Shown: positions 33,701-36,700 of the stretch, piece by piece
How the letters are laid out: each line of letters opens with the position of its first letter
Position numbering within the stretch: position 1 is the stretch's first letter
Assembly: GCF_018977255.1 (NCBI RefSeq)
Contig: NW_024704761.1
Span: 1,240,001-1,304,000, forward strand
From: Callorhinchus milii
Taxonomy: Eukaryota
DNA: 64,000 bases
Direction: 5' to 3'
Notes under the pieces: model-generated
The model's input: the letters and a program-made list of their open reading frames with translations, nothing else
What the model was told of the DNA's origin: nothing
Databases searched by the model: none
Program-made: the position numbers and the translations under genes

Positions 33701-36700
33701 AACACAGGTTCCAATCATCGGCAGCCAAATGACCAGACAGGCGAGACGACTCTATGTTGGCAATATACCCTTCGGTGTCACAGAGGTAAATATAATACTT
33801 TGCATATTTTACCCTTTGTAATGTTGGAATAATAATAATCTTTGCATTTGGTGTAACATCTTATCACGTCATTGAGACATCTCAAAGTACTTCACAAAAT
33901 ATATTGTAAAGTGGATTGACTGTATTTTGTGGATGAAACACATAGACAATCCACATTGGTATGGGTGATGCCAAACGAGATGCTGTGGATAGAGGGTTTC
34001 TGATTAAAATGTGACCATATTATAACATGCCAGTTGGGTTATCATGGAGCATATTGCAGTGCAACAGTTCAGGGTTGTGAGTTGTACCTGACATCACTGA
34101 GCCCCGCTGAACCTGTAAGCTGTGCACAGAAAACCCTCTCATCAGTGGCAATTGCTCTCACAAGCATCTTCATTGGTTGTTGAGGATTCTACTGACATCC
34201 CAAGGCCGACTGTGCCTTAGAACGCAAACACAGCAGGCATACCGCACTTTATTTACAGTGATATAATGTAAAAACTTTGCATGGGTGATTACAATTCAAT
34301 CTTTGAATCAGATTTGTATTATCTACCACTAAATTTAAGAGTAAGATAACCAGAATTTATTACAACTCATCATAACGGGCGTTTGAAAAGAGGTCTTGCA
34401 GGTAGTAAGGAATAAATTGCAGAGATTAAGTTATTGTCCATTGGACTTTATTATAATGATAAGTGCTGGATCCATATAGTCTTAATACCATGATGCGCAT
34501 TTAACAGACTTTAAAGAATACACCTTCTTTCTCAGGAAGCCATGGCAGACTTCTTTAATGCTCAGATGCGTCTAGCTGGCTTATCGCAGGCTCCCGGGAA
34601 CCCTGTATTGGCTGTGCAGATCAACCAAGATAAAAATTTTGCTTTTCTTGAGGTAAGTCTGTATCCTGATATTTTTTGTGGGTATTTTTGTAACTTATTT
34701 ATACTTTGTAAATCCAAAAACCAAATGATACTAACATTGATAATAATAATCCTTGCATTTGATATAGCACCTTATCACATCTTTGAGACATCTCAAAGCG
34801 CTTCACAGAACATACTGTAAAATGAATTGACTGTTATGTTTTGTGGACAAAACGCGGCAGCCAATTGTACACAGCTGTGTCCCACGAACAGTCGTGGATT
34901 GAATGACTAAATTATTTTTTATTATATATTCAACAAAAGACCTAGGTCAATAATGTATTATATGTATTAACTTATTTAAAGGGGAACTGGATAATAATAA
35001 AAACAATAAAAATACCGTAAACTTCTGATAACTCGACTCCTTTGCAGGACTATGGGGTAAGAGTGAGACTAGTTGGGTATCTCTTTCAAAGAGCCTGCAC
35101 AGACACGATGGGTCAAATGGCCTCCTCCTGTGCTGTAAGATTTTATGATTCTATATTTTTAATAAGTTTCCGTTTCACCTAATGTATTTTCAGCATACTA
35201 TTGCTTTGCTGTTTTTCCTAGTTCCGTTCAGTTGATGAAACGACACAGGCCATGGCATTTGATGGCATCATCTTCCAGGGTCAGTCTTTGAAGATCCGAC
35301 GTCCACACGATTACCAACCTCTGCCAGGCATGTCTGAGCAACCTTCTTTCCATGTCCCAGGTCCGTCAAAAAATGCATCGTCCGTGTGCTGGACTTCCTT
35401 TGCAGGTTTAAGTATACTGCATGCCTCCACTGTAATGACAGGGAACCAAAATACCATTTAGGTCAACCAAACGATGGGCTAAACTAGAGAAAAAAACAAA
35501 ACAAAGCAAATTTTTTTCAAAAATATATCTTGTCAAAGAAAATGCAGATACTTTAACAAACAAAAATGCAAGGAAAGTCGGAATCAGAACTCGCACAGCA
35601 GAATAACAATTCTGTGGATGAAGATCTTGACTCTAGGACCTGTACACCTAATCATTGAGTTGTCACCTGCTGAAAGGGAAATGATGTTGGCTTGAGCAGA
35701 TGGCAACAAAATGAATAGGAATATGTTGTGCAACACGGTTTTGTTCAGTTCAAAATAATATTTTCCCCATGTTTGAGTGGTTTTTGTCCTTGCGTGTCCT
35801 AGAATGTTTTTGATGCGTCTGTGAGTAGAGTTTTCAAACACCGTTTGACTAAGGGTTTTGCTAGAATAGAAAATTAACTTCTTCCAATGGTCAGTCCCAG
35901 GACCACCACAACTTTTTCTTCCCACAGCACTTTATTCTCAGAAGATATGCTTAAAATCTCTGGCTTCAACAAGTCACATTGAAGTGCCAGTTCCAGCCAG
36001 GCTGCTCAAAAGGTAACATTGTGGTAGCCTGGCTATATATAACCTCTATCACTAGTTCTCAACTAAAATCAAGTTGTGAAATTTACTGTAGAAGTCCAAT
36101 AACTAAAGGGTTCAGATAATTGAAAAGTGATTTCCAAGATTTGAAGTTCAGAATTTGACTTGATTCAGAAGTTGACATGCTCTCTGGTCACATTAGGGGA
36201 ACAAAAATTCACCTTTGCTCATCCTCTTCCATATATATTCCTGTTTTTTTCGTTTGCCTTTTTGAAAAATCATTTTCTTTCCCATCTCCCTCCCTCATAT
36301 ATATATATATATATTTTTTTGCGCTCTTCATCTCTTTCCATCGTCACTGGTTCTCAATCCCTGCACCTATTGAAATTCTCTCACTTGTGGATTTTGGAAA
36401 CCTGCAGAGTCTTTGTGTTGCGGTTTGGAGCAGCTGGCCCAGCGAGATTCTCCGCCAGCCTGGGAACACGCAATTGACTAGGGCCACATTGGTGACACTG
36501 TAAGTCAGAAGGTTTTTCCAGTTCTGCTTCTGCTTTCCTCTGACCCATACATGGCTTGCTTGCTTTAAAAAGGGATACAGCCATTCTAATTAAGGTGAAG
36601 AAAATAAACAAACCAATTGTTAATTGCTTTGTAAATATTTAAACTTTTTCTAAAAAAACAACTCACGAAATGACCAAGATCCATTATCTGAACCCCCTCT

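What the first reader, a model, noticed from the sequence alone, without database searches (positions are those of the whole stretch)
36195..36505. Poison exon behind a 209-nt AG-exclusion zone
Seen: there is no AG dinucleotide between 36196 and 36406. The interval is a long C/T-rich tract starting just after a branch-point-like aattcAc (~36211). The first AG opens a 92-nt exon ending at act|GTAAGT. Joined to exon 6 (phase 1) it reads [28 protein letters not shown] (TAG 36479), far upstream of later junctions, which truncates the protein after RRM1. Established: long AG-exclusion zones mark distant branch points and regulated exons, often PTBP-controlled. Inference: this is a functional NMD switch; an AG-free run this long that ends exactly at an exon-like unit is unlikely to be chance.
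Basis: partly seen in the sequence, partly recalled or inferred. Interest (0 to 1): 0.72.

Follow-up and report, generated by a model that had tools for sequence, protein, structure and literature searches.

The report
Poison exon in chimaera U2AF65 paralog
An intron of the elephant shark's second U2AF65 splicing-factor gene holds a real 92-base exon that stops the protein halfway, probably a self-limiting switch like the one known in human U2AF2 but in a different gene copy and a different intron.

Summary
The gene is Callorhinchus milii U2AF65, but it is the ancient "U2AF2-like" paralog, not the ortholog of human U2AF2. The 209-nt AG-free run is the longest on the + strand (2 of 2000 intron shuffles reach it). 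The 92-nt exon is very probably spliced. A public gene model, UniRef A0A4W3GSA1, already has the exon 6-to-exon junction and ends at TAG 36479. RNA contig ends in 2 of 4 runs, from two studies, fall exactly where use of its acceptor and donor predicts. The joints themselves were not listed. The upstream part of the intron is often retained, so the exon may also act as a decoy. Not shown: NMD, the branch point, the regulator, and conservation of the exon. PTB motifs are not enriched; U2AF65 self- or cross-regulation is my preferred model. Human U2AF2 has a known poison exon in another intron. In passing, intron 7 has a second stop-carrying exon, with a directly listed joint and conservation to teleosts.

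The parts
35222..35360 (+). Exon 6 of U2AF2-like (end of RRM1 and the RRM1-RRM2 linker); main donor CAG|GTCCGT is non-consensus at +3 and +4
   Evidence: joint 34650>35220 listed in 4 of 4 runs
35325..35333 (+). Alternative GC donor CAG|GCATGT at 35327 (removes 11 linker residues), phase 1
   Evidence: inferred from side=105 and depth arithmetic in run X6, then found as NCBI isoform X6, P0004
35403..35411 (+). Alternative donor CAG|GTTTAA at 35405 (adds 15 linker residues), phase 1
   Evidence: NCBI isoforms X1/X2 of C. milii; same insert in shark, skate and ray models
35361..36407 (+). 5' part of intron 6, often retained; first in-frame stop TAG 35459
   Evidence: X1 record 3 and X2 record 7 run on from spliced exons into it; stop; an unnamed Logan ORF (P0207) reads through the same intron in another species and matches 35566-35628 at 17 of 21 residues
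36197..36405 (+). 209-nt AG-exclusion zone, pyrimidine-rich, with U-runs at 36244, 36259, 36273, 36314 and an (AT)n stretch; only 50% pyrimidine next to the AG
36206..36222 (+). Distal branch-point candidates A36211 (-197) and A36221 (-187), each followed by 16-17 pyrimidines in 20 nt; not mapped
36378..36384 (+). Proximal branch-point candidate A36383 (-25), followed by a poor tract (10 pyrimidines in 20 nt)
36408..36499 (+). 92-nt stop-carrying exon (poison/decoy exon), acceptor CTGCAG| at 36406-36407
36479..36481 (+). Premature stop TAG, in frame with all three exon-6 donors
   Evidence: C-terminus of P0257
36497..36505 (+). Donor ACT|GTAAGT
   Evidence: X1 record 3 stops at 36499 with 30 unplaced letters; bin depth fits no cover beyond it
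37119..37198 (+). Exon 7 (start of RRM2)
   Evidence: X1 record 4 ends at 37148
39383..39468 (+). Second alternative exon, in intron 7: 18-nt in-frame form (donor 39400) and 86/90-nt stop-carrying forms (GC donor 39468, GT donor 39472)
   Evidence: joint 39466>43970 listed in 3 of 4 runs; translations; conserved in paralog-type fish proteins

Best explanation
The exon is an unproductive-splicing switch in the chimaera's U2AF2-like gene. Shown or strongly indicated: exon 6 has weak donors; the exon at 36408-36499 is spliced to exon 6 and to exon 7 in some transcripts; in others its donor is used while the 1 kb upstream stays unspliced; both products carry an early stop (36479 or 35459) far upstream of later junctions. 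Inferred from the 50-55-nt rule: exported copies are destroyed by NMD, or the half-spliced RNA is held in the nucleus. Inferred mechanism: the acceptor has a poor local pyrimidine tract, so it depends on a branch point and U-rich tract up to 200 nt upstream and on scanning to the first AG. That makes its use sensitive to U2AF65 level. More U2AF65 (this protein or its human-type paralog) would mean more exon recognition and less productive mRNA: negative feedback.
For: P0257 (UniRef A0A4W3GSA1_CALMI, 292 aa) ends ...SFHVP-ESLCC...HAID. Run X1: record 3 stops at 36499 with 30 unplaced letters; record 4 ends at 37148, the value predicted only for the 36499 donor (the three exon-6 donors predict 37145 or 37143); bin depth 44.4 observed against 44.42 predicted. 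Run X3, another study: record 14 ends at 36434 as predicted; record 12 has 168 letters left = 138+30; exon 7 has no depth; bin depth 22.6 observed against 22.4 with inclusion and 16.1 without. The same rule reproduces a listed joint (exon 4>5, end 34563) and predicted the 35327 donor before one search showed it. All three donors give the same stop. Human U2AF2 has a poison exon with PSI 57.5% in EJC libraries against 4.7-4.8% in RNA-seq (PMC8091538, passages). SR paralogs repeatedly evolve new unproductive events (PMC4379411, abstract).
Against: No joint at either boundary of the exon was among the rows shown; 126 rows were cut. X2 and X6 show only unspliced contigs across the exon (2 of 4 runs). 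The depth sums use contig means and partly assumed pieces. The basis of the UniRef model is not shown, its N-terminus starts inside intron 1, and it may rest on the same RNA data. The exon peptide occurs in 1 of 133 paralog-type proteins and in no other species. Teleost paralogs appear to lack room for it. U-runs are not significantly enriched for the tract's composition (P=0.12). No NMD, binding or branch-point data.
Confidence: 0.55

Rival explanations
1. Decoy exon: its main job is to engage the weak exon-6 donors unproductively and keep the 5' part of intron 6 retained in the nucleus; full inclusion and NMD are a side product.
For: The assembled path in X1 and X2 runs from spliced exons straight into the intron, in X1 up to 36499. 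The intron is 1.76 kb and has no repeat shared with the rest of the window. Read-through of the same intron is seen in another species (P0207). Decoys in retained introns over 1 kb bind U2AF (PMC6097662, abstract).
Against: Contigs are not single molecules and may include pre-mRNA or DNA; no DNA run was laid. Full inclusion is annotated and indicated in X3. This reading overlaps with the best explanation rather than excluding it.
Confidence: 0.2
2. Cryptic exon without regulatory role: a lineage-specific pyrimidine/AT-repeat expansion and a chance GTAAGT produce low-level mis-splicing that NMD clears.
For: No conservation of the exon shown. A 196-nt AG-free run occurs elsewhere in the window in low-complexity DNA. 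Only one fifth to one half of human AGEZ of 100 nt or more were estimated to mark distant branch points (PMC1431707, passages).
Against: The donor path survived assembly as the main path in X1 at depth 52.9. The upstream intron is conserved in another cartilaginous-type sequence. The host is a core splicing factor with a second, conserved event next door.
Confidence: 0.15
4. Coding isoform: the exon makes a stable truncated protein (RS domain, U2AF35-binding motif, RRM1, 24 new residues) acting as a dominant negative.
For: It is held as a protein record, A0A4W3GSA1.
Against: The stop lies 98 nt before the exon 7/8 junction with three more junctions after it. The tail is in no other species' protein among those stored.
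Confidence: 0.03

Closest known systems
Human U2AF2 poison cassette exon (PMC8091538 passages and supplementary table rows; PMC6547761 passages and supplementary Fig. S6C text)
   Same: U2AF65-family host gene; stop-carrying cassette exon in the RRM1-coding region; proposed autoregulation through NMD.
   Different: The window gene is the paralog, not the ortholog. The human event maps to the intron before the Glu-Ala exon: hg19 chr19:56,172.9-56,173.6 kb and a junction ending CCCTCTGCAG|GAGGC (the hg19-to-hg38 offset is recalled). That is window intron 4, two introns upstream. The human exon sequence could not be compared.
Distant-branch-point exons with long AG-exclusion zones, e.g. PTB exon 11 (PMC1431707, passages)
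   Same: AGEZ of 150 nt or more (165 of 67,334 human introns in that set); candidate branch point and tract at the 5' end; poor tract at the AG.
   Different: In PTB, skipping causes NMD; here inclusion does. The branch point is not mapped and PTB motifs are not enriched.
Decoy exons in retained introns, SF3B1 intron 4 (PMC6097662, abstract and one passage)
   Same: Cryptic cassette in a retained intron over 1 kb of a core U2-associated factor.
   Different: Decoy function needs a reporter test; conservation of this exon is not shown.
Turnover of unproductive splicing among SR paralogs (PMC4379411, abstract)
   Same: After duplication, paralogs carry unproductive events at different sites.
   Different: Described for SRSF4/5/6-type genes; I found no such account for U2AF65 paralogs in the searches named in the report.
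U2AF1 exons Ab/3 (PMC5224494, abstract)
   Same: U2AF subunit gene with weak clustered branch points beside a long pyrimidine tract, responsive to U2AF65.
   Different: Those are duplicated coding exons of the small subunit.

Membership tests
Poison cassette exon (AS-NMD) | Both splice sites are used | tested here: met
   Acceptor: gene model P0257 and X3 contig ends. Donor: X1 contig ends. Indirect; joints not among the listed rows.
Poison cassette exon (AS-NMD) | Stop more than 50-55 nt upstream of a later exon junction | tested here: met
   98 nt before exon 7/8; only 18 nt before its own junction
Poison cassette exon (AS-NMD) | Isoform rises when NMD is blocked | not testable with these tools
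   No NMD-inhibited or raw-read run was offered
Poison cassette exon (AS-NMD) | Exon sequence conserved across species | tested here: inconclusive
   No shark or ray DNA available. Peptide in 1 of 133 paralog-type proteins. 10 of 25 read-through ORFs show a short intron in teleost-type paralogs. No significant intronic hit in 80 metagenome loci, best E 0.063.
Poison cassette exon (AS-NMD) | Inclusion driven by the host protein | not testable with these tools
   Needs knockdown, overexpression or CLIP
Ortholog of the human U2AF2 poison exon | Orthologous host gene | tested here: not met
   The window gene groups with gar, bichir and teleost 'U2AF2-like' (99/98); grouping with human-type bony-vertebrate rows rejected, p-AU 1e-9 (group named)
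Ortholog of the human U2AF2 poison exon | Same intron | tested here: not met
   The human event lies before the Glu-Ala exon; this one lies two introns downstream
Distant-branch-point (long AGEZ) exon | AGEZ of 150 nt or more before a used acceptor | tested here: met
   209 nt
Distant-branch-point (long AGEZ) exon | Branch point at the 5' end of the zone | tested here: inconclusive
   Five weak candidates, at -197, -187, -111, -78, -25
Distant-branch-point (long AGEZ) exon | PTB regulation | tested here: inconclusive
   Motifs not enriched, P=0.32; binding not testable
Decoy exon | Lies in a retained intron over 1 kb | tested here: met
   1758-nt intron; contigs run on from spliced exons in X1 and X2; pre-mRNA not excluded
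Decoy exon | Its splice sites promote retention | not testable with these tools
   Needs a minigene

The most novel reading that the evidence does not exclude
Jawed vertebrates began with two U2AF65 genes. The copy not seen in any tetrapod row here is a dosage-sensing paralog whose RRM1-RRM2 junction is a splicing control hub: three donors that set the linker at -11, 0 or +15 residues, a long-AGEZ poison/decoy exon in intron 6, and a chimaera-to-teleost conserved exon in intron 7. Together they would let the two U2AF65 paralogs cross-regulate, as PTB and nPTB do, and tune 3' splice-site stringency genome-wide in fishes.
Probability: 0.2. Interest if true: 0.62.

Novelty: new member of a known kind. 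Interest (0 to 1): 0.4.

Why it matters
U2AF65 is treated as a single-copy core factor, and the fish duplicates u2af2a/b as products of the teleost genome duplication. This gene belongs to a third, older lineage, present in cartilaginous and ray-finned fishes and in 0 of 24 named tetrapod rows checked. It carries unproductive exons in other introns than the human one. If regulated as proposed, it extends the pattern of paralogs re-inventing AS-NMD from SR proteins to U2AF65 itself, and it gives a natural reporter in which a long distal pyrimidine tract reads U2AF65 dosage. It also means a public 'protein' record (A0A4W3GSA1) is probably an NMD substrate. The class of element is well known, so the surprise is moderate.

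Tried and rejected
No own genome is held, so the human-type C. milii gene's introns could not be compared. Rfam gave 4 tRNA-like matches in the window, none near the exon: no snoRNA. Folding 36180-36530 gave z=+1.91, with 97 of 100 shuffles folding at least as well: no hairpin model. The run search listed no holder on record as RNA and only organism A; this says nothing on expression or conservation. The four runs laid do show GT-AG joints at exons 3-6. No alternative exon was listed in window intron 4 (750-nt skip in 4 of 4 runs), but contigs drop rare forms, so this is not evidence of absence. 80 metagenome loci (of 115 relatives) gave no significant intronic match; nearly all are 64-89% identical, distant relatives. 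The search of proteins of 30-266 aa (best 120 of 480) held no exon peptide. PTB and U-run enrichment were not significant. Orthology to human U2AF2 and a cartilaginous-fish-specific duplication were both rejected. Five look-ups of earlier findings gave nothing on this DNA. PMC13247117 and PMC11162794 had no relevant passage.

Full report
1. The observation. The sequence is as described. AG dinucleotides lie at 36195-36196 and 36406-36407 with 209 AG-free bases between them, 69% pyrimidine, the longest such run on the + strand. 2 of 2000 dinucleotide shuffles of intron 6 and 0 of 200 shuffles of the window reach that length, and the tract's own letters lack AG in 0.5% of 20000 shuffles. The 8 constitutive acceptors tested have AG-free runs of 16-51 nt. 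A caution: a 196-nt run lies at 14331-14529 in C-rich low-complexity DNA, so length alone is not proof. The first AG opens 36408-36499, ending at the only GTAAGT of the intron. Joined to exon 6 it gives a stop at 36479 and a 267-aa product. The stop is 18 nt before the exon's own junction and 98 nt before exon 7/8, with three more junctions downstream. That meets the 50-55-nt NMD rule (my own knowledge).

2. The host gene. Exon 6 matches solved U2AF65 RRM1 structures. Exon 10 is 100% identical to NCBI isoforms of Callorhinchus milii U2AF65. C. milii has a second gene, V9KME5, 82% identical there. In a 31-row tree and an 18-row tree the window gene groups with shark, ray, bichir, gar and teleost 'U2AF2-like' proteins (99/93 and 99/98). 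V9KME5 goes with human-type proteins, at lower support (84/77 and 81/85). Forcing the window gene and its two elasmobranch kin with human-type bony-vertebrate rows, or all five cartilaginous rows together, is rejected (p-AU about 1e-9 and 2e-9; groups named after the first tree). By a linker signature, 24 of 24 named tetrapod rows checked are human-type, and so are 7 of 7 fish proteins named 2a or 2b. So this is an old paralog, not seen in the tetrapod rows I hold; I did not search tetrapod genomes for it.

3. Is the exon used? One read-laying run on four contig sets (X1, X2 from study P1; X3, X6 from P2; 4 of the 14 runs listed) showed GT-AG joints for exons 3-6 in all four, so they hold spliced RNA. 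No joint at the candidate exon, and none for exon 6>7, was among the rows shown; 126 rows were cut. The evidence is therefore contig-end arithmetic for 31-letter words. Control: the listed exon 4>5 joint predicts that the intron contig ends at 34563, and it does. Donor: X1 record 3 runs exon 5, then 35220-36499, then 30 unplaced letters. X1 record 4 ends at 37148, the value for the 36499 donor; the three exon-6 donors predict 37145 or 37143. The bin depth 44.4 equals record 3 alone stopping at 36499 (44.42, against 48.81 if it ran on). Acceptor: X3 record 14 ends at 36434, as predicted. Record 12 has 168 letters left after exon 5, which is 138+30. Exon 7 has zero depth in X3, whereas 1.16 is expected if the tail lay there. 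The bin sum with inclusion is 22.4, without 16.1, observed 22.6 (this sum assumes pieces I could not see and is a weak hint). A tail running 27 nt into the intron is not excluded by length alone. Against: X2 and X6 show only unspliced contigs across the exon. The same arithmetic predicted a GC donor at 35327 in X6 before NCBI isoform X6 showed the matching 11-residue deletion, which is a fair blind check. Separately, UniRef A0A4W3GSA1_CALMI (P0257) ends in exon 6 followed by the 24 exon-encoded residues and nothing more. So the junction is already in a public gene model, as a protein. What that model rests on is not shown, and it may use the same RNA.

4. Surroundings. Exon 6 has three donors (35327 GC, 35360 GTCCGT, 35405 GTTTAA), all phase 1, so all meet the same stop. 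The +15-residue form is annotated in sharks, skates and rays. X1 and X2 contigs run from spliced exons into the first kilobase of the intron, which carries a stop at 35459. A contig is not a molecule and no DNA run was laid, so pre-mRNA is not excluded. An unnamed Logan ORF with the elasmobranch-type insert reads through the same intron and still matches at 35566-35628 (17 of 21 residues, E 1.6e-4). From 35149 to 41151 there is no repeat shared with the rest of the window. Next to the AG the tract is poor (50% pyrimidine). Five weak branch-point candidates exist; the two distal ones are followed by 16-17 pyrimidines in 20 nt, the proximal one by 10. The region is unstructured. PTB tetramers (P=0.32) and U-runs (P=0.12) are not enriched for its composition.

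5. Conservation of the exon. Not shown. The peptide is in 1 of 133 paralog-type proteins stored, which means little because NMD forms are rarely annotated as proteins. 10 of 25 paralog-type read-through ORFs reach exon 7 after 25-31 codons, so in those teleost-type genes the intron is under about 100 nt and cannot hold this element. A human-type teleost locus has about 140 nt. No shark or ray DNA was reachable.

6. A second element. Joint 39466>43970 is listed in 3 of 4 runs from both studies: a GC donor AAG|GCAAGT at 39468 spliced to exon 8. The exon starting at 39383 has an 18-nt in-frame form and 86/90-nt forms with a TAG. Its upstream joint was not listed, and X6 and X3 contigs show unspliced sequence before it. 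10 of 109 paralog-type proteins and 0 of 80 human-type ones have Leu-Gly-Ala right after exon 7. Teleost inserts match the window across a frame shift (79% over 19 codons, E 2e-6 on intron 7), which points to constraint on the RNA. In some teleost models the 90-nt form is annotated in frame, so its poison role there is not shown. This event is better evidenced than the flagged one.

7. Mechanism. Most likely: an acceptor that depends on a distal branch point and tract is recognised more when U2AF65 is abundant. The outcome is inclusion with a stop, or retention of the upstream segment, and both remove productive mRNA. Shown or strongly indicated: sequence, stops, splice-site use (about 0.9). 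Inferred: NMD, distal branch point, U2AF65 as regulator. Overall 0.55. Rivals: decoy-driven retention 0.2, cryptic noise 0.15, PTB switch 0.07, coding truncation 0.03.

8. What is known. Human U2AF2 has a poison exon: PSI 57.5% in EJC libraries against 4.7-4.8% in RNA-seq (PMC8091538, passages), and a low-confidence autoregulation candidate (PMC6547761, passages and section 26). Supplement text places it at hg19 chr19:56,172.9-56,173.6 kb, and a junction in the other paper's table ends at an exon starting GAGGC, Glu-Ala. With the assembly offset recalled, that is the intron matching window intron 4. So this exon works like the human one but is not its ortholog. Long-AGEZ exons (PMC1431707, passages), decoy exons (PMC6097662, abstract and one passage), paralog turnover (PMC4379411, abstract) and U2AF1 exon Ab (PMC5224494, abstract) supply the frame. 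Two zebrafish papers treat u2af2a/b only as homologs (PMC4691745, PMC9304896, passages). Searches listed no paper on this exon or this paralog's splicing; the library lacks most subscription papers.

9. Verdict. A real, annotated-but-unrecognised poison-type exon in an overlooked U2AF65 paralog: a new member of a known kind, interest 0.4.

Noticed in passing
window 39383-39472 (+), intron 7: Alternative exon with three donors (39400 GT, 39468 GC, 39472 GT). The GC joint to exon 8 is listed in 3 of 4 runs; the long forms carry a TAG; conserved to teleost U2AF2-like genes across a frame shift. Better evidenced than the flagged exon.
   Followed up: partly
window 39464-39478: The tandem donor G|GCAA|GTAAG resembles the human U2AF2 intron-5 donor GGCAA|GTAAGG in PMC8091538's table, although the introns differ. 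It may be chance (GC donors force most of the motif) or a moved element.
   Followed up: no
window 35327, 35360, 35405: Three in-frame donors change the RRM1-RRM2 linker by -11, 0, +15 residues; the +15 form is annotated across sharks, skates and rays. The linker is autoinhibitory in human U2AF2 (recalled, no call).
   Followed up: partly
window 37603-37966: A second long AG-free run (152 nt) followed by candidate acceptors (about 37783 and 37931) and a CCA|GTAAGT donor at 37960; a 29-nt form would carry an in-frame TAA. No contig or joint listed.
   Followed up: no
window 38156-39466: Long RNA contigs (X3 record 15, X6 records 20 and 21) cover this part of intron 7, and one runs on through the GC joint into exon 8: retention upstream of the second exon, or an internal transcript start.
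   Followed up: no
whole gene, 30713-48067: The gene is an old jawed-vertebrate U2AF65 paralog, distinct from fish u2af2a/b and absent from 24 named tetrapod rows checked. It has no separate exon between its RS exon and the RSPR exon (human has one; recalled).
   Followed up: partly
window 32670-32687: NCBI isoforms X1 and X6 carry six extra residues (DHLHFL) at the start of exon 2, i.e. an acceptor 18 nt upstream.
   Followed up: no
window 2269-3604 and 7599-8934; also about 4942-6090 and 10272-11421: Identical sequence recurs 5330 nt apart near the window start: a tandem duplication or an assembly artefact.
   Followed up: no
window 1952, 16550, 17310, 44326 (-): Four weak tRNA matches in Rfam (30-40 bits), most likely tRNA-derived SINE heads.
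   Followed up: no
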